DNA of 64,000 nucleotides, from the NCBI RefSeq assembly GCF_003019035.1, contig NZ_CP027447.1; one strand, written 5' to 3'. The notes under the pieces were generated by a model that did not search any database, was not told where the DNA came from, and saw only the letters and a list, made by a program, of their open reading frames with translations. Both the position numbers and the translations under genes were made by a program. Within the stretch, counting starts at the first letter, position 1. Every line of letters starts with the position of its first letter. Shown in pieces: positions 2,404 to 59,272 of this stretch. The DNA is from Escherichia coli (GTDB lineage: Bacteria > Pseudomonadota > Gammaproteobacteria > Enterobacterales > Enterobacteriaceae).

Positions 2404-4295
<1,892 letters not shown>

Positions 4296-45494: not shown

Positions 45495-46079
45495 TTACTC
45501 CCTGACAGGGTTCGTAGGCCACTCAATATCAGGTGCAGTTGATGTATCAACACGGTTCAGCAACACCCGATACTTCTTCCAGGCTTCCAGCAACGAGTTT
45601 TCTTCCTCCGTTGCAATTTCCAGATCTACAGCATCCTGAAGCGGCGCAATATGCTCACTGGCTACCTGCATCAGGCTTTTTTTTGTTTCTTCCGCCTCCC
45701 GGATCCGGAACAGTTTTTCTGCTTCCGTATCCTTCACCCAGGCTGTGCCGTTCCACTTCTGATATTCCCCTCCCGGCGATAACCAGGTAACATTTTCCGG
45801 TAACGGACCGAGTTCAGAAATAAATAACGCGTCGCCGGAAGCCACGTCATAGACGGTTTTACCCCGATGGTCTTCAACGAGATGCCACGATGCCTCATCA
45901 CTGTTGAAAACAGCCACAAAGCCAGCCGGAATATCTGGCGGTGCAATATCGGTACTGTTTGCAGGCAGACCGGTATGAGGCGGAATGTATGCATCACCTT
46001 CACCAATAAATTCACTGGTTCCGGCCAGCAGATTATAAATTTTTATGGTCCGTGGTTGTTCACTCATTCTGAATGCCAT
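45495..46079 (-). CDS. tfa: tail fiber assembly protein (lambda Tfa-like)
   Basis: 194 aa, matches lambda Tfa as I recall it. Confidence 0.9.
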
Positions 46080-48403
46080 TATGCAAGCCTCACAATATAG
46101 TTAAATGCGATGTTTTTGACGGTGTTTTCCGCGTTACCAGCAGCGTTAACGGTGATGGTGTGTCCGTGTGAACCAATACTGAAAGAATGGGCATGAGCAC
46201 CGATAACAACCGGATGCTGGTGCGCACCAATACCAACTGTATGCGCATGTGCACCGGCACTCACAGCTGTACCGGACAATGAGTGACTGTGGTTGCCCTG
46301 ACTGTCCGTTTTCGATAAATAAGCAATACCCTGTGTGTTGGTTCCTTTAACTGTGGATAAACTTCCTGTAATGGTTGCTGTTCCATACTGACTCCAGCCA
46401 GAACTGTTCATCCTTAAACCACTTGTGTGGGCATGAGCACCCGCGGCCCCTGTTGAACCGCTCAGACTGTGAGCATGAGCCCCCGTGTTATTCGTCGATT
46501 TGGTGCCGTAATCGAAACTGCCTGTTGTTTTCGTCCCGTAATCAAACGACGATGTGGTTTTCGTCCCCAAATCCGTACCGGATGCACTGGCACTGTGGGT
46601 GTGCGACTTAATTCCATCCTGTTCCTGAGACAATACAGCACGACCGCTGGCGGGTTTCCCCTTGATTGTCCAGCCTCGCATATCAGGAAGCACACCCGAT
46701 GGATACGCGACAGCAAGTTTTGGGTAGGCTGATTTGTCAAACGCCTGCCCCTGCATCAGGACGTAGCCAGACGGAACGATATCTGATGGCCACGGGATCG
46801 GCGCACCTGCCGGAAAGGCCGAATTCTCTCCGGCTCCAAGGTATTCAAGAACATCTGCAACAGAATTTTTTGCCAGAATATCCCTGCCAACCTGAGTCAG
46901 TTCAGTCAGGCTGGCGGCATCATTTTCCGCAAAATACGGTAATTTATTTTTCGCCGTGGAAAGCCCTGCCAGCGCCGTCAGTGTCGCATTCTTCGGTTGT
47001 TTACCCGCAAGCGCGTTAGTCATGGTGGTAGCAAAATCTGGATCATTCCCGAGCGCTGCGGCCAGTTCATTCAGCGTATTCAGTGCGTCAGGTGACGCGT
47101 CGATAACATCTGCAATCGCGGCCAGTACAAAAGCGGTGTTCGCAATCTGGGTATTGTTTGTTCCCCTGAGCGCGGTTGGTGCTGTTGGCGTTCCGGTCAG
47201 TGCCGGACTATCCAGTGGGGCTTTTCTGTTCGTTTCATCCATTACCACCTTAACCGCCTTTGGCGTTGCAGCAAGCGTTTCAGACGTGCTGTTGGTTGCA
47301 CTGCTGAGCTGCACTATCCCCTTTCTCGTTGTGTCCGCATCCTCAAGCGCGACAGCTGAAGCTATATCTTCTGCACGTTTTGCCGAGTTTTCTGCACGTA
47401 TTGCCGCCGCTTCTGCCGCACTTTTGCTCTGCGATGCTGATACCGCACTTCCCGCAGCCTCTGTCGCCTTCGTGGATGCCGTTGACGCACTCCCCGCCGC
47501 CGCTGTTTTTGCGTCTGCCGCGGCAGAGGCGCTCCGTTCCGCTGCTGTTTCAGATGACCTGGCATTCGTCTCGGACGTTTTTGCCGCCCTGGCAGAATTT
47601 TCTGCCGCCGTTGCCGAGGAAGCTGCACGACCGGCACTTGATGATGCGTTCGTTTCTGATGATTTTGCTGCCTCTTTTGAGGCCACCGCATCTCGTGCTG
47701 AAGTGGCGGCCTCTGACGCTTTAGTGGTCGCGGTGGAGGCAGACGTGGCGGCTGATTGTTGTGACGCTGCAGCATTCGTTTCTGACGTTTTCGCCGCACC
47801 GGCACTGGTGGCCGCCGCGCTTTTTGAGGACTCTGCAGCGGCAGCACTTTTTTCCGCTTCAGTGGCCTTTGTTGATGCCGTTCCTGCGCTGGAAGACGCT
47901 GACTGAGCCGACGAAGCGGCCTGTCCGGCTGACGTGCTGGCTGCGCGTGCTGAGCCTGCAGCATCAGTCGCATGGGTTGCCGCCTCACGGGCTGATGTGC
48001 TGGCATCGCCGGCTGACTTCTTCGCGGCTGCCGTGTTCTGTGCCACCACGGACGCGTTACGCGCCACCTCTTCCACCATCAGTTCAAAACGGCGCAGTGC
48101 CTCAGGACGGGCATCATCCTCCGTCATGGCACCGAGAAAATCATTCAGCGTACCGGGTCGGGAATCTTCATACACGGTGATGGTCCCGGCATGTGACGGC
48201 GGGAATCCTTCCACCAACAGAATAACGCTGTACTGACCGTACTCAACGTCCATGCTGTAACGCCCGGCTTCATCCGGATTTTCTGAGGCCAGCGTGTTCA
48301 CCACCACCGTGGTACTGTTACGTTTTGCTTTCAGCTGGATTGTGCAGTTCTGTACCGGTTTTCCTGTGCCGTCTTTCAGTACACCTGAAATCTTTACTGC
48401 CAT
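46079..48403 (-). CDS. stf: side tail fiber protein (lambda Stf-like, full length)
   Basis: N terminus [20 protein letters not shown]; Ala/Ser-rich repeats; C-terminal GAHAH repeats; ATG at 48403 (ORF-track start 48409 is GTG). Confidence 0.9.
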
Positions 48404-48414
48404 ATTCACCCCAC

Positions 48415-49134: not shown

Positions 49135-52100
49135 TCAGCTGATACTGATGCCTGCGGTGGCTTTCTTCATCACCACAACCAGCAAATCGCTGATACTTGC
49201 TGTGGGATACCAGTCATTTACCAGCCATGCTGACACCGAAAACTCCAGCGTCATGTGGCCGTGACCAGCTGGCATATCAATAACACCACTGTAAATCAGC
49301 GTATTATCCAGCGCGGTACGGTTATAAATTTCAGCACCATTTTTCTTCACTATCAGGCGGCATGACGAATAAATATCGTTATTCTCCCGCTCATGTTTAG
49401 CGCCGCAGAATGCCACCGCCGGAATAACAATTTGCCTGTCAAAAGGCTGATCGTCATAAATCCTGACGGTAATGGTCCCTGATGGCCACCGCTCCGGTGC
49501 CCGGGAGTCCCGCGGGAAAGCCTTACCCACTGTTTTGACAATATCGCCTTCAATCTGGTTGGCTGACAGTTTCCCTTTAATCTGACAGTTCTCATTTATC
49601 GTAACGTTGTTGAGCGTCCCGGAGTTCGCATTCACACTGCCACTGATATCCGCATTTTTAGCGGTCAGCTTTCCGTCTGATGTCAGGGAAAATACCGGAG
49701 GACTGCCTCCGCTGGTAATGGTGGGTGCCGTCAGGCGTTTCAGGAACACGTCGTTCATGAATATCTGGTTGCCCTGCGCCACAAACATCGGCGTTTCATT
49801 CCCGTTTGCCGGGTCAATAAACGCGATACGGTTAGCGGCAACCAGAAACTGGCTCAGTTTGCCTTCCTCCGTGTCCTCCATGCTGAGGCCAATACCCGCG
49901 ACATAATGTTTGCCGTCTTTGGTCTGCTCAATTTTGACAGCCCACATGGCATTCCACTTATCGTTGGCGTCCTTCCACTCTTTCGAAAACTCCTCCAGTC
50001 TGCTGGCGTTATCCTCCGTCAGCTCGACTTTTTCCAGCAGCTCCTTGCCGAGATGGGATTCGGTTATCTTGCCTTTGAAAAAATCCAGGTAACCTTCCGC
50101 ATCATCGCTCGCCCGACCGACGGCCTCCACGAATGCCGATTTGCCAACGGTGTTCACACTGCGGATATAAAAGTAATAATCATGGCCCGGTTTGATATTG
50201 ATACTGGCGGCTATCCAGTACAGCCCCGTGCCAAGATAGCGGGCTGTGGTTTCAACCTGCCTGATATCAGTAATCCGCGTTTCCGAGAACCAGAACTCAA
50301 ACTGTACCGTCGGATCGTAAACCGCAAGATGCGGCGTGGCGGTTATCTGAAAATAGCCCGGCGTCAGCTCAATCCGCGACGGCGCTGCCGGTGCGGCAAT
50401 CCGGAACGATACCGACGCCGGATCGCCCTGCTGTCCCCACGCATTTACCGCCCGGACTGTCAGCCTGTAGTTCCCTGGCGCCAGTTGCGTGAAGCGGTAT
50501 GTGGTTTCCGTCGTCCGGGCCGTGCTGACCAGCCGCTCACTGCCGTCATCCGCTGCCACGGTCAGGCGAAGCAGGAAGCTCACGCCCTTCACCACTTTCG
50601 GCGTGTCCCAGCGGGCCAGCACCTGATATTCTCCGCTGTCTGCGGTGACTTCGGCAGTCAGGTGCTGCACCGCTGGCGGCGTGACACCATTCACCGTGCC
50701 GCTCTGGTCGCCGTCAAAGTGCGCCCCGTTATCCACGATGGCCTCTTTTTCCGGCACATGCTGCACGGCGGTGATGGCATACGTGCCGTCATCGTTCTCA
50801 CGGATACTCACGCAGCGGAACAGTCGCTGGCGCAGCGTCGGCAGCTTCAGCCCCCATACGCTGTATTCAGCAACACCGTCAGGAACACGGCTCACTTTTA
50901 CCTTCACGCCGTCGGTGACGGACTGAACCTCCACGCTGACCGGATTGCCACTTCCGTCAACCAGGCTTATCAGCGCGGTACCGGAGGATGGCAGCGTGAT
51001 TTCACGGTCGAGCGTCAGCGTCCGGGTCTGGCTGTTCACCGCCAGCACGCGACCACCGGTACTGATACCGGCATAGTCATCATCGCAGACTTCAATGACG
51101 TCACCCGGTACATGGCGAAGCCCTTCTGCACCCACGCTGAAGTCCACCGTCTGCGTCTCCAGCAGTTCCGTTTTAATCAGCCACAGCCCGGCGCGGTGCG
51201 CCTGCCCCCGGCTGGTACAGCCAAAGGCATCCATCTTCGTGACGTTACGACCGTAACGGGCAATAGCCTGCGTATCTTCAACCAGCTCCGTCGCCGTCTC
51301 CCAGCCGTTGTTCGGGTCAATCCAGTTCACCTCAACGGCATTATGGCGGTCCTTCAGGGCGCTGAAGCTGTAGCGGAACGGCGCGCCATCATCCGGCATC
51401 ACCACATTACTGCGGTTATAGGTCCACACCTTATCTGATGGTCGGTCCTGCACGAACGTCAGCGTCTGCCCGTTCCATACCGGCATACAGCGCATCGCCG
51501 AGCAGAAATCACTGAGCACATCCCACGCCTTGCGCTGCGTGGTCAGGTACGCATTACAGGTGATGCGCGGCTCCGTGCCGCCAAAGCCGTCCGGCACTGA
51601 CTGGTCGCAGTACTGGCCGATGACATACAGCGCCCATTTATCCACATCCGCCGCACCAAGACGTTTCCCCATGCCGTAGCGCGGATGGGTCAGCATATCC
51701 CACAGACACCAGGCCATGTTGTTGCTGTATGCCGGTTTAAACGTTCCGTCCCAGATACCGCTGTATTGCCGCGTCTGCGGGTTATAGTTCGACGGCACCT
51801 GCAGAATGCGCCCGCGAAGATGATAATTACGACTCACCTGCTGGCTGCCGAACTGCTCCGAGTCCACCTGTACACCGACCAGTGCCGTGTTCGGGTAGCC
51901 CTGTTTCACATCGATGATTTCGGTGTATGACGACCAGAGCGTTTTGTTCTGCAGCTGGTCTGTAGTGCTGTCCGGCGTCATCCTGCGCATCCGGATACTG
52001 AACGGGCGCGGCGGCAGGTTACCCACCACCACCGAGGCCAGATACTGCGAGGTGGTTTTACCCTTAATGGTGATGTCTTTTTCTGTCACCCAGGCACCGT

Positions 52101-52530
52101 TACGCTGTATCTGAACCAGCAGGCGGACTTCCGACGGATTCCGGTCACCCTTTGAGGTGGTTTCCACCAGAGCCTGCACACCGAAGGTAAAGCGCAGTCG
52201 GTCGATGTTTGCCGACGTGATGGTCCGGGTGATCGGCGTGTCATATTTCACTTCCGTACCCAGCACCGTCTCGGAGCCGGAGGATTCAAACCCCTCCGGC
52301 GGTGTCTGCTCCTGCTCACCTGCCCGGAACACCACCGTGACACCGGAGATGTTGGTATTCCCCTCAGTGTCCAGCACCGGCGTACTGTTCAGCAGCACGC
52401 TTTTTAATCCATCCACCGGACCTTCAATCGGTCCTTCACTGATGGCATCAATCACACTCAGCAACTGCGTGGACTTCAGGTTGTCCTTCGCTTCGCGCGG
52501 GGTATGCCCCTTACTGCTGCCTTTACCCAT
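49135..52530 (-). CDS. J: tail tip / host specificity protein J
   Basis: 1131 aa; N terminus [24 protein letters not shown] matches lambda J; C-terminal ~150 aa diverge. Confidence 0.93.
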
Positions 52531-54915: not shown

Positions 54916-57900
54916 TCAGGCACTGTATAATCCTCCGTCCCGACGTGATGACTGCATAATTGACACAACCCTGCTGTCGATCAGATCCACCAGCCCCCTG
55001 GCTGACTGCGTATCTATCTCGCCATTGCTCCCTTTATTCTGAATACTGATGTGATACACGGGAGAATAGACAAATCCGCCGCCACCATTCACATTGCCAA
55101 TGGCTCTGACCCCAAGAGAGCCGTCCGCTGCCCGCGTCAGTGGCATGATAGCTTCAGGCCCGGCCTCGCCCATCAGTCCGGCACCTTTCGCAAAAGCAAA
55201 ATACGTCGGCGTATCCACAATAGTGTTACTGTAAGCACTCAGATTTGCCGATGTGTAAACACCACCTTTTGCGTTTGCTACTGCCCCCGAAATCCATCCG
55301 CCTACCGTACCAAGCCACCCTCCGGCGCCGGAGAGTGATTTCAGTCCGTTAACAATGGCCGCATTCATCAGAATTTTTGAAACTTCCTGGAGAACTGAAC
55401 TCCCCCAGTTCCTCCAGTCAACAACATTCCCGGCCAGTGCATCGGAAATATTTGATACCAGCCCGTCCATGGTGGAAACGACAGCATCTGCCGCCTGCGA
55501 AGCATAATCAGTGGCACTGTCTGCCCAGTTCGTCAGCCCCTCCTGGAGTCCGGCATTCCAGTTACTGCGTAAAGCATCAGCCTTTGCATAATAATCCTGC
55601 TGATCGCTGAGACGCTCTTCCAGATATTTTTTATTCAGTTCTTTCTCCTGTTTCCACAGGGCTTCTTCAATTTCTCCGGCCTGATACTGTCTCAGCAGCT
55701 CGTTATTTTTCTGCTCAAACGTCTGCCGGATACTCCACATTTCCTGGAGTCGTTCACGCATCCGTGAGCCTTCACCATATCCCAGCAACTGCGCGTCGTC
55801 AGATGCCCGGGCACTGGCATTACTGTCCGCCAGACTGCTCTCATACGCAGCAAGCTGCTCACGAATCTTTTTCTGGTCGATGAGTGCTGCATTCTGCAAA
55901 AGCGTTTTTTTCTGCGCTTCTGACAGGGTTGATAATTCGCCCTGACTGACCTGATATTTCATCTTAGCCAGTTCAGTATTCTGCCCTGCCAGTGCTATCT
56001 GCTCTTTCTGCTGTTTAATCAGCCGTTTATAAATATCTTCTGTTTTTTCCGCCTCGGTCTTTTTATGCGCTTTGGGTTTATTTGCCTGATTATTTCGCCA
56101 TGCATCCAGTGAGTTATTTATATAATTCAGTCTTGCTGTCTGATATGCCTCTCCCACAAAGCCGAGATCATCCGCAGCATAACCCAGGCGGGCACGCTCA
56201 CGGGCTTCCCCCTTCAGGCGGGACAGAGCCAGTTCGCGCTCGCTGTTATTCAGTGCGGTCTGCTGTTTATCATCCAGGGTTGCCTGTGGCAGCCGTAACG
56301 GTACATTCACCAGCCCCTGACGCTGCTGAAGTAACTCATTACCAAGCCCGAGAAGGCGATTAAACTCGGTATGCTGCCCATTCATGATCAACAGGGACTG
56401 ATACGCTTTGTTTTGTTCCGCTGCCTGTTGACGGATCAACGCAACCCGCCGCTCCTCCAGCCCGGCAAGCACATCCTGAATGGATTGCGCTTTGCCCTGC
56501 ATTTGTGTGAGGCGAGACTGTTCAACTGCCAGTTGATTTGTTGCTTCGGCAAGCCCTTCTGTGACAGTTTTTACCGACGTCATGTGGTTAATCATAAAAC
56601 CGTTATCGGTTGTCCAGCCCGGGTTTGCCAGCACGTACTGATAGCCAGCAATTTTTTCCTGTAAGGATTTAATCTTACTTTTCTGCTCGTCAATTAACCT
56701 GTTCTGCTCCTTCAGTGCCTGCCGCGTCTTTTCCTCATTATCTGACGCTTCAGGAAGCGACATTGCCGACGTTTTCTGGCGAATTTCGTCGATTGTTGCG
56801 GCATACTGGCGTGCAGATTCTCTGGCCTGCTCCTGATTCTGATACATCGTGTACCAGGCCGCGGCCCCCAGCATGACAAGCCCCGGCACACCCCCAACCA
56901 GTCCCAGTGCTCCACTTAACAGACGACTCCCCGCTGACGTGACAGTATTCAGCGTTGTCTGTGCTGCTGTTCTGGCCGCAATATTACGGGTAAGTGATGC
57001 CTGGGCAGCAGCCAGTTTCGCTTCTGCGGCTGCCTGCCTTTCGGTACCGCGAGCAGCAACAACCGCCTGTTGCGCACGATAAACCGCCGCACGCGCCCTG
57101 GCTGTTGCTATCTGTGTCCCCCGAAGTTGCGCTTCCGCAAGAGCCACTTCGTTTCTGGCTGCAGTAATTAATCCGGCAGTTGCAGATCCAGCAGAAGACG
57201 CCATATTGCCAAAATATCGGGCTACCCCGACGGCAACCAGAGCACCGGCAGCGGTTGCCACAGTGTCAATATTGCCTGCAATACCATTCAGCACACCAGA
57301 GAGCGTCTTTGTCACTCCGCTTGCCTCGTTCGCACCACCAACCCAGGCCATAAAGGCGTTTTCAACTTTGGTTGCAGAGGATGAAACAGTATCAGGCATT
57401 GCTGCATATTCATCACGTAACGCCCCAAGCTGACTAATCAGTGCAGGAACAACCTTATCGGCGGTCAGTTTTCCGTTATCCGCCATGGCCTTCAGATCCT
57501 TACGGGCAACACCCATTCCCGCAGCCAGCGCACGAATAACACGATCGCCGTTCTCATTCACAGAGTTAAATTCTTCACCGCGCAGCACTCCCTGCGCCAG
57601 TGCCTGACTGAACTGCGTGATCACCGAACTGGCTTCTGCTGTACTGGCACCGGATAATTTCAGCCCCGTGGAGATCGCCTCGGTGACTTTCAGTACCTCC
57701 TCAGAACTGTAGCCATACTCCCGCATGGAAGCTGCAGAGCGGGCAAAAAGGCTGGCGTTATCCGAAAACGCCGTCCCCGTTCTCTGGCTGATTGCCATTA
57801 ATTCACGTTGTGATGCCTGAAAATCATCACTGGACTGCGTGGCCTGCTTCAGACGGGCATTGACTGAATTCCACTCATCGGCGAGAGAAATAAGATGACC

Positions 57901-58149
57901 GGTAGCAAAAGCCCCGGCAAATGCCTCCGCCATATTCAGTGCCGAAGACTTAGCTGTATTTATCTGATCCGTCACTTCTACCAGTGCACGCCGCATTTCA
58001 CGGGATGCTGCAGCGGACTGTCGGCCTCCGTTCTGCATGGTGCGGTAGTAATCCTGCCCCATGCGCGAAGCCCGGGCGATCTCTGACTGGAATGACCGGG
58101 AGTTTGCCGAGATTTTAATAATCAGTTCACGTAATGTCGCCACACTCAT
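54916..58149 (-). CDS. H: tail tape measure protein
   Basis: 1077 aa, Ala/Gln-rich coiled-coil, position between GT and M. Confidence 0.92.
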   Translation of the reverse strand: MSVATLRELIIKISANSRSFQSEIARASRMGQDYYRTMQNGGRQSAAASREMRRALVEVTDQINTAKSSALNMAEAFAGAFATGHLISLADEWNSVNARLKQATQSSDDFQASQRELMAISQRTGTAFSDNASLFARSAASMREYGYSSEEVLKVTEAISTGLKLSGASTAEASSVITQFSQALAQGVLRGEEFNSVNENGDRVIRALAAGMGVARKDLKAMADNGKLTADKVVPALISQLGALRDEYAAMPDTVSSSATKVENAFMAWVGGANEASGVTKTLSGVLNGIAGNIDTVATAAGALVAVGVARYFGNMASSAGSATAGLITAARNEVALAEAQLRGTQIATARARAAVYRAQQAVVAARGTERQAAAEAKLAAAQASLTRNIAARTAAQTTLNTVTSAGSRLLSGALGLVGGVPGLVMLGAAAWYTMYQNQEQARESARQYAATIDEIRQKTSAMSLPEASDNEEKTRQALKEQNRLIDEQKSKIKSLQEKIAGYQYVLANPGWTTDNGFMINHMTSVKTVTEGLAEATNQLAVEQSRLTQMQGKAQSIQDVLAGLEERRVALIRQQAAEQNKAYQSLLIMNGQHTEFNRLLGLGNELLQQRQGLVNVPLRLPQATLDDKQQTALNNSERELALSRLKGEARERARLGYAADDLGFVGEAYQTARLNYINNSLDAWRNNQANKPKAHKKTEAEKTEDIYKRLIKQQKEQIALAGQNTELAKMKYQVSQGELSTLSEAQKKTLLQNAALIDQKKIREQLAAYESSLADSNASARASDDAQLLGYGEGSRMRERLQEMWSIRQTFEQKNNELLRQYQAGEIEEALWKQEKELNKKYLEERLSDQQDYYAKADALRSNWNAGLQEGLTNWADSATDYASQAADAVVSTMDGLVSNISDALAGNVVDWRNWGSSVLQEVSKILMNAAIVNGLKSLSGAGGWLGTVGGWISGAVANAKGGVYTSANLSAYSNTIVDTPTYFAFAKGAGLMGEAGPEAIMPLTRAADGSLGVRAIGNVNGGGGFVYSPVYHISIQNKGSNGEIDTQSARGLVDLIDSRVVSIMQSSRRDGGLYSA

Positions 58150-58160
58150 TCTCCGGACGA

Positions 58161-58185
58161 AAAAAAACCGCCGAAGCGGTTTTTG
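58161..58185 (-). terminator. intrinsic terminator closing the moron, immediately upstream of the tape measure start
   Basis: minus strand aaccgc ttcg gcggtt hairpin followed by seven T. Confidence 0.65.
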
Positions 58186-58191
58186 TATTCT

Positions 58192-58344
58192 TTAAAGAAG
58201 TCCGGCCTTACGCCTTGCTTCCTGAAGATATTCATCATCCGTTTTTTGTGAAACGGAACTATCTGCATTGCAAATTAAATCACTACCGCAATGCTTACAT
58301 TTAATCACCTCTTCTTTGTTCGGGTCTGCACAGGGATTCTTCAT
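58192..58344 (-). CDS. hypothetical small Cys-rich protein (50 aa), moron gene
   Basis: MKNPCADPNKEEVIKCKHCGSDLICNADSSVSQKTDDEYLQEARRKAGLL; starts 8 nt after the upstream ORF stop; no clear SD. Confidence 0.4.
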   Translation of the reverse strand: MKNPCADPNKEEVIKCKHCGSDLICNADSSVSQKTDDEYLQEARRKAGLL

Positions 58345-58352
58345 GTCATTGT

Positions 58353-58526
58353 TTACCATTTGTTATTCATATGGCTTCTCATTTCCAGGATTACAAGTGA
58401 ATGGATCAGAGCAACAATAAAGATCATCGAGCCATATATCCACCACCTTAAAAATGAGCAACCTTTGCTTTTCGTGATAATCGCCGGAATCAGCCCTAAA
58501 ATTATTGAAATAAGTACGAATTCCAT
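58353..58526 (-). CDS. hypothetical small membrane protein (57 aa), moron gene; candidate superinfection-exclusion protein
   Basis: SD AAGGAGG 5 nt before ATG; product MEFVLISIILGLIPAIITKSKGCSFLRWWIYGSMIFIVALIHSLVILEMRSHMNNKW with two hydrophobic segments. Confidence 0.55.
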   Translation of the reverse strand: MEFVLISIILGLIPAIITKSKGCSFLRWWIYGSMIFIVALIHSLVILEMRSHMNNKW

Positions 58527-58583
58527 CGATGCCTCCTTACTTACTCAATAAAACGGGAATAATAATTCAGTTATGTGGAAAAT

Positions 58584-58874
58584 TCATCGGGATGCAACAA
58601 ATAACGCCCTCTCAATCTCAGCAAGTGGATCGCCCATATTATTTTCACAGGCGCATTCCCACTGAAGAAGTGCATCATTCAGTGGAACTTTAACCCCCTG
58701 CGCACCGTAAACAGCTGAAACAATCTGGGCAGCACGGATATCAGCCCGTTCGTCCCCCAGCGGGCTGAACCTGTCAAATTCTGCCCACATCATGATTTCT
58801 GATGCGGACATTTCCCGGCGTAATTCTGACAATGTACGCCCCATCCTGAGTGCCAGCATCATCAGAAAACGCAT
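58584..58874 (-). CDS. T: tail assembly chaperone T segment (made as G-T fusion by -1 frameshift)
   Basis: ORF in the -1 frame relative to G, open from the slippery site; lambda G/GT paradigm. Confidence 0.8.
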   Translation of the reverse strand: MRFLMMLALRMGRTLSELRREMSASEIMMWAEFDRFSPLGDERADIRAAQIVSAVYGAQGVKVPLNDALLQWECACENNMGDPLAEIERALFVASR

Positions 58875-58885
58875 CCCCGGAAGCG

Positions 58886-59272
58886 CTACTTTTTTTTAAC
58901 CTCGCCGGCATCACTGATCAGTTCCAGAGACTGCCGAAGAAGCCGCGCATGCACCGGGCCATACACGGCAATCACCTGTTCACGATCATCCTCTGAAAAT
59001 ACAGGTTGCAGTCCGGTATCACACAGAACATCAATGAACAGTTCAACATCTGCCTCCAGATTTCGGCGGGCGCGCTCCGCAACGGATAACGGTGTCTCAT
59101 CATCTTTTGCTTTAACGATCTCCTGCCAGCGCAACCAGGCTTCTGCAGAAGGTTCCCGTAATACAACCGTTGCTCCTTCCCATTCAGGCACATCAACAGT
59201 TTTATGGCGAAACCCCGACATCGTTGCCAGTGCCAGATTACGGATATTTTTAGTCATCACACCCATCCTCAT
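58886..59272 (-). CDS. G: tail assembly chaperone G
   Basis: 128 aa acidic protein between the major tail gene and T. Confidence 0.85.
   Translation of the reverse strand: MRMGVMTKNIRNLALATMSGFRHKTVDVPEWEGATVVLREPSAEAWLRWQEIVKAKDDETPLSVAERARRNLEADVELFIDVLCDTGLQPVFSEDDREQVIAVYGPVHARLLRQSLELISDAGEVKKK
58889..58895 (-). promoter_or_regulatory. programmed -1 ribosomal frameshift slippery heptamer A AAA AAG
   Basis: G frame ends GAG GTT AAA AAA AAG TAG; shifting back one nt reads AAA GTA GCG CTT CCG GGG ATG into the T ORF. Confidence 0.75.

What the first reader, a model, noticed from the sequence alone, without database searches (positions are those of the whole stretch)
58192..58526. Two-gene moron between the GT chaperone and tape measure genes
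A ~430-bp insert sits between T (58584..58874) and the tape measure start (58149); lambda has nothing there. On the minus strand it encodes a 57-aa ORF (58353..58526) with a strong Shine-Dalgarno (AAGGAGG) and two hydrophobic segments, then 8 nt later a 50-aa ORF (58192..58344) with four Cys spaced C-x10-C-x2-C-x5-C, closed by a strong intrinsic terminator (58161..58185). Both are under the 60-aa ORF-track cutoff. HK97 gp15, a small inner-membrane superinfection-exclusion protein, sits in the equivalent position (established knowledge), so the membrane protein may be a functional analogue; I cannot judge sequence relatedness. I know of no precedent for the Cys-rich partner.
Basis: partly seen in the sequence, partly recalled or inferred. 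Interest (0 to 1): 0.6.

Follow-up and report, generated by a model that had tools for sequence, protein, structure and literature searches.

The report
Broken one-gene moron, not two genes
The two small reading frames between the prophage's tail-chaperone and tape-measure genes are the halves of one inserted gene for a small membrane protein with a zinc-ribbon tail; here that gene is broken by a frameshift, a stop codon and a deletion, so it is a decayed copy, not a new gene pair.

Summary
The sequence features are real: a roughly 395-440 bp AT-rich insert (38% GC against 50-53% in the flanks) lies between T and the tape measure gene. It holds a 57-aa ORF with an AAGGAGG ribosome-binding site, a 50/55-aa Cys-containing ORF, and a hairpin-U8 terminator.

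The "two-gene" reading is wrong. Both ORFs match one profile, phrog_8436: ORF1 covers positions 1-51 and ORF2 positions 69-108. Sixteen complete E. coli genomes, Salmonella phage FSL SP-016 and 79 of 80 IMG/VR loci carry one intact 110-115-aa gene in this slot. It encodes two TM helices plus a Zn_ribbon_3 domain (CPxC-x10-CxxC).

The window copy has three lesions:
- a 1-bp deletion that shifts the frame;
- a CAA>TAA stop in the original frame;
- a 6-bp deletion that removes the first zinc-ligand Cys.

It also has substitutions at invariant residues (A18T, R23C, E>D, A>V).

The broken allele is real: the same lesions occur in independent assemblies, on more than 260 contigs. HK97 gp15 occupies the same slot but is unrelated (YebO family).

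The function of the intact family is unknown. It is a stable resident of this slot, mostly with a conserved promoter-like element of its own. A prophage-expressed envelope role, such as superinfection exclusion, is inferred and untested.

The parts
58144..58583 (-). T-to-tape-measure intergenic region that holds the moron insert. It is about 394 bp longer than the 46-bp junction of insert-less relatives.
   Evidence: Searches show insert-less phages. One search gives GC 38% against 50-53% in the flanks; in a 60-row sample of the 870 E. coli genomes carrying this T/TMP module, nearly all have the short junction.
58353..58526 (-). ORF1, 57 aa. It is the N-terminal fragment: residues 1-46 form the conserved 2-TM hairpin, and an 11-residue out-of-frame tail (LEMRSHMNNKW) follows. 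It carries A18T and R23C at invariant or near-invariant positions.
   Evidence: phrog_8436 positions 1-51, E 6.9e-17; (the exact sequence occurs on 211 contigs).
58192..58359 (-). ORF2, 55 aa (50 aa from ATG 58344). It is the C-terminal fragment: a zinc ribbon lacking its first Cys, plus the C-terminal helix. Its start codons are internal Met codons of the intact gene, and there is no SD.
   Evidence: phrog_8436 positions 69-108, E 8e-11. Zn_ribbon_3 match is only E 0.0075 over model positions 8-26, against 1.6e-8 for the intact protein..
58387..58388 (-). Site of the 1-bp deletion (frameshift) relative to intact alleles: ...GTAATCC|TGG...
   Evidence: Alignments A1 and A3. The same lesion is present in L020 and L021.
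58363..58365 (-). TAA stop codon in the original, downstream reading frame (CAA in intact alleles). It blocks any frame-restoring read-through.
   Evidence: translation ...PYE*QMVNND....
58336..58337 (-). Site of the in-frame 6-bp deletion (KCPY > NP) that removes the first zinc-ligand Cys and the conserved Pro.
   Evidence: this Cys is invariant in the 119- and 68-homologue alignments.
58532..58538 (-). Shine-Dalgarno sequence AAGGAGG, 5 nt upstream of the ORF1 ATG.
58569..58574 (-). ATAACT, at the position where intact E. coli alleles have the -35-like TTGACT. No sigma-70-like promoter is called upstream of ORF1 in the window.
   Evidence: For contrast, more distant alleles carry a conserved GTGAC[AT]-N17-TAGGAT.
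58160..58185 (-). Intrinsic terminator: A-run, CCGC-UUCG-GCGG hairpin, U8. It is shared with insert-less relatives.
58584..58874 (-). Tail assembly protein T (upstream flank).
   Evidence: phrog_337 and phrog_14766; PGAP annotation.
54916..58143 (-). Tape measure protein gene (downstream flank). The probable start is GTG 58143.

Best explanation
The insert is a single-gene moron in the T/tape-measure slot of an HK97-type prophage tail operon. Its cargo belongs to a large uncharacterised family of small membrane proteins. The family architecture is an N-terminal two-helix hairpin (GLIPAxIAxxKGRSFxxWWxYG...H), a CPxC-x10-CxxC zinc ribbon (Pfam Zn_ribbon_3) and, in the versions that occupy this slot, a short C-terminal helix.

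In this window the gene is a decayed copy. A 1-bp deletion shifts the frame after codon 46. The original frame then carries a TAA. A 6-bp deletion has removed the first zinc ligand. Several invariant residues are substituted, and the -35-like hexamer of the intact E. coli alleles is altered.

At most the 57-aa hairpin fragment, which keeps its strong SD, is still made. The Cys-containing fragment has no SD and an incomplete metal site, so it is most likely not a functional protein.

Shown: the homology, the lesions, the slot, and the conservation of the intact family. Inferred: that the intact protein is expressed from the prophage and acts at the inner membrane (for example against incoming phage, like gp15), and that the window copy has lost that activity.
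For: One profile spans both ORFs.

An intact 113-aa gene occupies the same place in 16 complete E. coli genomes. It is annotated as one CDS, WP_000394908.1.

The base-level alignments show the -1 and -6 deletions. The translation of the original frame shows the extra stop.

Across 119 homologues the window deviates at A18 (100% conserved), R23 (96%), the first Cys (100%), E of CAE (100%) and A of EAxKC (100%). The Pfam zinc-ribbon score drops from E 1.6e-8 to 0.0075.

The family is large and uniformly a single chain: 1623 hits, and 4276 representatives at E<=1e-10.

All 80 best IMG/VR loci lie between T and the tape measure gene, and 79 of them have an intact ORF.

A promoter-like GTGAC[AT]-N17-TAGGAT sits at a fixed distance in 35 of 46 distinct upstream sequences, and each locus has a terminator.

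The AF2 model shows two long helices, a beta knuckle region and a C-terminal helix, with pLDDT 77.

PGAP annotates no CDS here in the identical genome.
Against: The broken allele is not a one-off. The exact ORF1 sequence is on 211 contigs and close variants are on 51 more, so it has persisted and spread.

ORF1 keeps an excellent SD and start codon.

Natural stand-alone hairpin-only homologues of about 50 aa end almost exactly where the frameshift falls. A hairpin alone could therefore be functional.

The two amino-acid variants seen among the broken alleles both fall in the out-of-frame tail, not in the hairpin. This is only three sequences.

Codon differences from the intact allele in the hairpin are 9 synonymous and 8 non-synonymous, which does not show free decay.

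No expression or phenotype data exist for any member of the family.
Confidence: 0.85

Rival explanations
1. The truncated 57-aa hairpin (ORF1) is a functional mini-version of the protein, and only ORF2 is debris. The membrane hairpin would be the active module, for example interfering with channel formation by an incoming tape measure protein, and the zinc ribbon would be dispensable.
For: Stand-alone hairpin-only homologues of 49-62 aa exist, ending just after HSLVIK. They lie in other genomic contexts with no zinc-ribbon gene next to them. ORF1 keeps its AAGGAGG and ATG. The allele is widespread. The variants among the broken alleles map to the junk tail only.
Against: ORF1 carries A18T and R23C at positions that are invariant or near-invariant, including in the stand-alone homologues. 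The -35-like TTGACT of intact E. coli alleles is changed to ATAACT, and no promoter is called. No hairpin-only form appears among the 80 related loci in this slot.
Confidence: 0.12
2. It is a genuine two-gene moron. The membrane protein and the Cys-rich protein would be translated separately, coupled through the overlapping ATGGTAA, and would work as two subunits.
For: The ORF2 ATG (58359) overlaps the ORF1 stop, which could allow termination-reinitiation. Both fragments retain recognisable homology. The allele has persisted.
Against: No conserved split arrangement was seen. In the 120 best family hits and in 79 of the 80 slot loci the hairpin and ribbon are one chain. The hairpin-only homologues that were checked have no ribbon gene beside them. 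The first zinc ligand is deleted and other invariant ribbon residues are changed. ORF2 has no SD. The split coincides with three independent lesions, which is the signature of decay and not of a designed gene pair.
Confidence: 0.03
3. The frameshift is a sequencing or assembly error, or a programmed ribosomal frameshift, and the full-length protein is made.
For: Frameshifts in complete genomes assembled from long reads are often artefacts. The neighbouring G/T genes do use a programmed -1 frameshift (established knowledge for lambda-like phages).
Against: The same -1 and -6 deletions occur in independent assemblies L020 and L021 and on more than 260 contigs. The deletion is not in a homopolymer and is surrounded by substitutions. 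The original frame contains a TAA between the deletion and the ribbon, so no frameshift could restore the protein. No slippery heptamer is present (read).
Confidence: 0.01

Closest known systems
RefSeq 'zinc ribbon domain-containing protein' WP_000394908.1 / phrog_8436 (the 2-TM hairpin + Zn_ribbon_3 family found in HK97-like prophage tail operons)
   Same: It is the same gene in the same slot. Over the 451-bp insert region the DNA is about 88% identical: 76-87% in the 5' two-thirds and about 100% in the 3' third and the terminator. ORF1 and ORF2 together cover the profile.
   Different: The window copy is split by a frameshift, has a stop in the original frame, lacks the first zinc ligand, and has substitutions at invariant residues. 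The function of the family itself is unknown: NCBIfam, PADLOC, PHROG annotation, Foldseek and the literature searches all return nothing.
HK97 gp15 moron (YebO family, PF13974, phrog_5031), the superinfection-exclusion protein of Cumby et al. 2012 (summarised in PMC3594210)
   Same: Both are small AT-rich inserts between T and the tape measure gene. Both encode a small inner-membrane protein behind a strong SD and are followed by an intrinsic terminator.
   Different: There is no sequence relationship (BLASTP E 0.3) and they fall in different PHROG and Pfam families. gp15 has one TM helix and no Cys. The family here has two TM helices and a zinc ribbon. gp15 is experimentally characterised and this family is not.
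Other morons in the same slot of the same E. coli prophage group, e.g. the 113-aa predicted lipoprotein WP_071605788.1 (phrog_2320)
   Same: It is in the same T/TMP junction, has a similar insert length, and has its own SD and terminator. Its product is also targeted to the cell envelope.
   Different: The sequence is unrelated. It has a lipoprotein signal peptide (lipobox ISAC) instead of a TM hairpin, and its function is unknown.
Classical membrane superinfection-exclusion proteins (T4 Imm, P22 SieA)
   Same: These are small phage-encoded inner-membrane proteins thought to block genome entry. The analogy is functional only and rests on established knowledge.
   Different: No Pfam, PHROG or PADLOC match to any of them was obtained. 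The Pfam scan of the intact protein lists only zinc-ribbon families. PADLOC returned only weak matches to unrelated models.

Membership tests
Moron (Juhala et al. 2000 sense, as summarised in PMC3594210) | Extra DNA between two genes that are adjacent in related phages | tested here: met
   Insert-less relatives are 97-98% identical in the flanks. In a 60-row sample of the 870 E. coli genomes with this module, nearly all have the short junction.
Moron (Juhala et al. 2000 sense, as summarised in PMC3594210) | Base composition different from the neighbouring genes | tested here: met
   Insert GC is 38.2%, against T 50.5%, G 50.4% and the tape measure gene 52.6%.
Moron (Juhala et al. 2000 sense, as summarised in PMC3594210) | Own promoter | tested here: inconclusive
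   No sigma-70-like site is called upstream of ORF1 in the window or in the intact E. coli allele. More distant alleles have a conserved GTGAC[AT]-N17-TAGGAT. The window has ATAACT where E. coli alleles have TTGACT.
Moron (Juhala et al. 2000 sense, as summarised in PMC3594210) | Own terminator | tested here: inconclusive
   A canonical hairpin-U8 follows ORF2. The identical terminator is also present in the insert-less PhiR49_2 directly after T.
Moron (Juhala et al. 2000 sense, as summarised in PMC3594210) | Expression from the repressed prophage | not testable with these tools
   This needs lysogen RNA-seq or Ribo-seq.
2-TM hairpin + Zn_ribbon_3 family (phrog_8436, WP_000394908.1) | N-terminal hairpin motif G-x-IPA-x-IA-xx-KGRSF-xx-WW-x-YG...A..H | tested here: met
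   ORF1 residues 1-46 align to the profile at E 6.9e-17. However, A18T and R23C depart from invariant or 96%-conserved residues.
2-TM hairpin + Zn_ribbon_3 family (phrog_8436, WP_000394908.1) | Four-Cys zinc ribbon, CPxC-x10-CxxC | tested here: not met
   The first Cys and the Pro are removed by the 6-bp deletion. The Pfam match falls to E 0.0075 and covers only model positions 8-26.
2-TM hairpin + Zn_ribbon_3 family (phrog_8436, WP_000394908.1) | Hairpin and ribbon on one polypeptide | tested here: not met
   There is a frameshift at 58388|58387 and a TAA at 58363-58365 in the original frame. The copy is a member by descent but a pseudogene by state.
HK97 gp15 / YebO family (PF13974, phrog_5031) | Sequence similarity to gp15/YebO | tested here: not met
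   BLASTP gives E 0.3. ORF1 has no phrog_5031 hit. The only match is a weak 18-residue one in the C-terminal tail, E 0.0013, and it was not reproduced in the gp15 homologues retrieved.
HK97 gp15 / YebO family (PF13974, phrog_5031) | Single N-terminal TM helix followed by a charged helix | tested here: not met
   The family here has two hydrophobic helices. gp15 has one.
HK97 gp15 / YebO family (PF13974, phrog_5031) | Exclusion of HK97-like phages at the DNA-entry step | not testable with these tools
   This needs plating assays.

The most novel reading that the evidence does not exclude
The intact 2-TM/zinc-ribbon family could be a previously unrecognised class of prophage-encoded proteins that act on the inner membrane. 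One possibility is an injection-blocking superinfection-exclusion factor tuned to the tape measure protein beside which it has long resided. It has been stably resident in the T/tape-measure slot of HK97-like prophages across Enterobacterales, mostly with its own conserved promoter-like element. The window's truncated hairpin would then be a naturally minimised, still active version.
Probability: 0.2. Interest if true: 0.55.

Novelty: new member of a known kind. Interest (0 to 1): 0.27.

Why it matters
For this window it matters little. It corrects an over-reading: two novel small proteins are really one pseudogenised gene that PGAP leaves unannotated.

At the family level it points to something testable.
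- A very common, well-conserved, wholly uncharacterised small membrane/zinc-ribbon protein occupies the same tail-operon slot as the only characterised moron of that slot, gp15.
- In most lineages it has a conserved promoter-like element and a terminator.
- That slot holds at least three unrelated cargoes, all directed to the cell envelope.

This makes the intact allele a reasonable candidate for a new superinfection-exclusion or lysogenic-conversion function. The naturally broken allele is a ready-made negative control.

Tried and rejected
- NCBIfam and PADLOC scans of the intact protein and both fragments gave only sub-threshold noise.
- Foldseek of the AF2 model against AFDB50 returned only uncharacterised "zinc ribbon domain-containing" or "phage-related membrane" proteins.
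- Four of the five literature searches found nothing on this family: zinc ribbon + moron + tape measure; the WP accession; zinc ribbon + transmembrane + superinfection exclusion; and moron/tape-measure/chaperone terms. The fifth returned only papers on gp15 and morons in general. Two defence papers that were checked mention gp15 only as a citation.
- Homology to HK97 gp15 was rejected.
- Programmed frameshifting and sequencing error were rejected.
- Rfam gave only sub-threshold rsmX and isrK matches over the terminator.
- The antisense ORFs (86 aa at 58291..58551 + and 56 aa at 58134..58304 +) have no family match.
- Topology by the positive-inside rule is ambiguous. The loop has 2.4 K+R, against 3.3 for the N-tail plus the C-flank, so I do not claim on which side of the membrane the ribbon sits.
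- The codon comparison of the hairpin (9 synonymous, 8 non-synonymous) is not decisive on selection.

Full report
**Observation.** On the minus strand between T (58584..58874) and the tape measure gene (ATG 58149; more probably GTG 58143, which gives MATLREL as in HK97 and in PGAP), the sequence reads as follows.
- T stops at TGA 58586-58584.
- A 57-nt spacer ends in AAGGAGG (58538-58532).
- A 57-aa ORF runs from 58526 to 58353.
- A second ORF starts either at ATG 58359, which overlaps the first ORF's stop in ATGGTAA, or at ATG 58344, and runs to 58192.
- A hairpin CCGC-UUCG-GCGG followed by eight U lies at 58185-58160.

The insert is 38% GC, against 50-53% in T, G and the tape measure gene. 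The closest sequenced phages (vB_EcoS-569R6, PhiR49_2, Evi, phi467 and others) are 96-98% identical in G/T and the start of the tape measure gene but lack the insert.

**What the two ORFs are.** Both ORFs hit the same PHROG, phrog_8436, a 110-position profile. ORF1 covers positions 1-51 (E 6.9e-17) and ORF2 covers positions 69-108 (E 8e-11). In 16 of 5426 complete E. coli genomes the homologous insert, about 88% identical, is annotated as a single CDS, "zinc ribbon domain-containing protein" WP_000394908.1, 113 aa. Salmonella phage FSL SP-016 has an intact 111-aa homologue in the same place. The window is 100% identical over the queried insert region to E. coli JNEC-KY180, where PGAP annotates no CDS between T and the tape measure gene.

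**The lesions.** The base-level alignment shows that the window differs from the intact allele by a 1-bp deletion (between 58388 and 58387) and a 6-bp in-frame deletion (at 58337|58336).
- The 1-bp deletion makes ORF1 run out of frame after codon 46 and end after 11 junk residues.
- The 6-bp deletion changes MKKCPYCAE to MKN--PCAD.

Translating the original frame upstream of ORF2 gives ...PYE*QMVNND. A CAA>TAA change (58365-58363) has therefore put a stop in that frame as well. This rules out any frame-restoring mechanism.

**The intact protein and family.** The intact protein has two hydrophobic helices and a Pfam Zn_ribbon_3 domain (E 1.6e-8). ORF2 alone scores only E 0.0075, over the second knuckle. 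In an alignment of 119 homologues the window copy departs from the consensus at these positions:
- A18 (100% conserved);
- R23 (96%);
- G61 and K64;
- the first Cys (100%) and the following Pro (97%);
- the Glu of CAE (100%);
- the Ala of EAxKC (100%).

**Artefact or real allele.** The same two deletions are present in independent assemblies (L020 from an SRA run, L021 from a GenBank draft). The exact ORF1 sequence is recorded on 211 contigs, and two single-substitution variants on 51 more. The intact protein is on at least 1000 contigs. The broken allele therefore circulates; it is not a sequencing error.

The window's prophage and the KY173 prophage are 96-100% identical over 6.4 kb except for a patch of about 400 bp. 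This patch, from the 3' end of T to the first zinc knuckle, is 76-87% identical, and downstream of it identity returns to about 100%. The damaged part therefore sits in a recombination patch of different ancestry.

**The family and its setting.** The family is large.
- The indexed search gave 1623 hits.
- The exhaustive profile search gave 4276 representatives at E<=1e-10.
- At least 570 IMG/VR viral contigs encode a relative.

All 80 best viral loci (61-100% protein identity) have the gene between T and the tape measure gene. Of these, 79 are intact, with 34 distinct proteins of 110-115 aa. L064 has an independent nonsense mutation at codon 31.

More distant members sit elsewhere:
- in other tail-operon gaps, between L and K in Edwardsiella and between K and I in Atlantibacter;
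- near a tailspike gene in Enterobacter;
- in a non-phage region in Pantoea.

Hairpin-only versions of about 50 aa also exist.

In 35 of 46 distinct upstream sequences of the slot-resident subfamily, an exactly spaced GTGAC[AT]-N17-TAGGAT lies 56-61 nt before the ATG, with its first hexamer overlapping the T stop codon. The scan tool calls it as a promoter-like site in FSL SP-016 and in Cronobacter. The E. coli alleles have a different upstream sequence containing TTGACT. The window has ATAACT at that position, and no promoter-like site is called there.

Each locus is followed by a hairpin-U-run. In this phage group, however, the identical terminator also follows T directly in the insert-less PhiR49_2. 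The terminator therefore cannot be claimed as part of the insert.

**Comparison with gp15.** HK97 gp15 (62 aa, one TM helix) lies in the same slot with a similar SD and its own terminator. It is unrelated in sequence (BLASTP E 0.3) and belongs to the YebO family (PF13974, phrog_5031). A weak 18-residue match of the C-terminal tail to phrog_5031 (E 0.0013) was not reproduced in the gp15 homologues I retrieved. I treat it as unproven.

In the same E. coli prophage group, the slot is empty in nearly all of a 60-row sample of the 870 genomes that carry the module. Seventeen genomes hold the zinc-ribbon gene. Two of the sampled genomes hold an unrelated 113-aa predicted lipoprotein. The slot is a small hotspot, and its three known cargoes are all directed to the cell envelope.

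**Function.** Nothing is known for any member. NCBIfam, PADLOC, PHROG annotation, Foldseek and the literature searches all came back empty. Three things are shown:
- strong purifying conservation of the intact protein (18 invariant columns among 68 sequences that are 47-85% identical to the reference);
- long residence beside the tape measure gene;
- a conserved promoter-like element plus a terminator in most lineages.

From these, and from the gp15 precedent (PMC3594210), I infer that the intact protein is made in lysogens, inserts in the inner membrane, and most plausibly interferes with entry of other phages. I give this about 0.3 probability. Which side of the membrane the ribbon faces cannot be decided from charge counts.

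**Verdict.** For the window copy, the most likely state is loss of function (0.85). The main reservation is that the hairpin fragment keeps its translation signals, resembles natural hairpin-only proteins in length, and belongs to an allele that has spread. The finding is a decayed copy of an annotated but uncharacterised moron gene, not a two-gene system with an unprecedented Cys-rich partner.

Noticed in passing
L023:550-891 (E. coli UR21/11-869, NZ_OU342919.1); also hit H96: The same T/tape-measure slot of the same prophage group carries a different moron in some genomes. It is a 113-aa predicted lipoprotein (MRKSVVTLACLFFISAC..., WP_071605788.1, phrog_2320, unknown function) with its own SD and terminator. 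The slot therefore holds at least three unrelated envelope-directed cargoes.
   Followed up: partly
L003:3941-3969, L006:4940-4968 and 56 of the 80 loci L027-L106: An exactly spaced promoter-like element, GTGAC[AT]-N17-TAGGAT, is conserved 56-61 nt upstream of the zinc-ribbon gene. It is present across alleles that are only 61-70% identical in protein, and its -35 overlaps the T stop codon. It is absent from the E. coli-type alleles and from the window.
   Followed up: partly
window 58160-58185 and L022:676-710: The identical intrinsic terminator (CCGCTTCGGCGG-T8) follows T directly in insert-less phages such as PhiR49_2. Either the tail operon of this group has a resident terminator before the tape measure gene, or the insert-less phages are deletion derivatives that kept the moron's terminator.
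   Followed up: partly
window ~58290-58700 (L001 ~2890-3282): There is a patch of about 400 bp, from the 3' end of T to the first zinc knuckle, that is only 76-87% identical between two prophages otherwise 96-100% identical over 6.4 kb. This looks like a short recombination tract with one end inside T and the other inside the moron gene.
   Followed up: partly
L064:3501-3842: This is an independent decay event in the same gene family: a Cronobacter-type allele with a single nonsense codon at position 31 (WWF*GF) in an otherwise intact 113-codon frame.
   Followed up: yes
residues 95-112 of the intact protein (window ORF2 residues 37-54; window ~58198-58251): The C-terminal tail KTDDEYLQEARRKAGLL is conserved in the versions resident between T and the tape measure gene, and absent from versions in other slots. 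It gives a weak match (E 0.0013) to the last 18 positions of phrog_5031, the gp15 PHROG. Whether this reflects a shared 3' module or chance is open.
   Followed up: partly
window 58161-58263 (-): There are sub-threshold Rfam matches to rsmX (24.7 bits, gathering 56) and to the Hfq-binding prophage sRNA isrK (18.1 bits, gathering 50) over the 3' end of the gene and the terminator. A 9/12 promoter-like site (TTCACA-16-TATCTT, 58252-58225) lies inside ORF2. This is probably chance, driven by the terminator.
   Followed up: no
window 58886-58905: G ends with GGTTAAAAAAAAGTAG. The A-run is the expected slippery site for the -1 frameshift that produces the G-T fusion chaperone. PGAP annotates T as a separate CDS.
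   Followed up: no
window 1-45000: The left ~45 kb of the window looks like host chromosome, with the prophage tail end near 45.5 kb (tail-fibre-size ORFs at 46079..48409 and 49135..52530 on the minus strand). It was not examined further.
   Followed up: no
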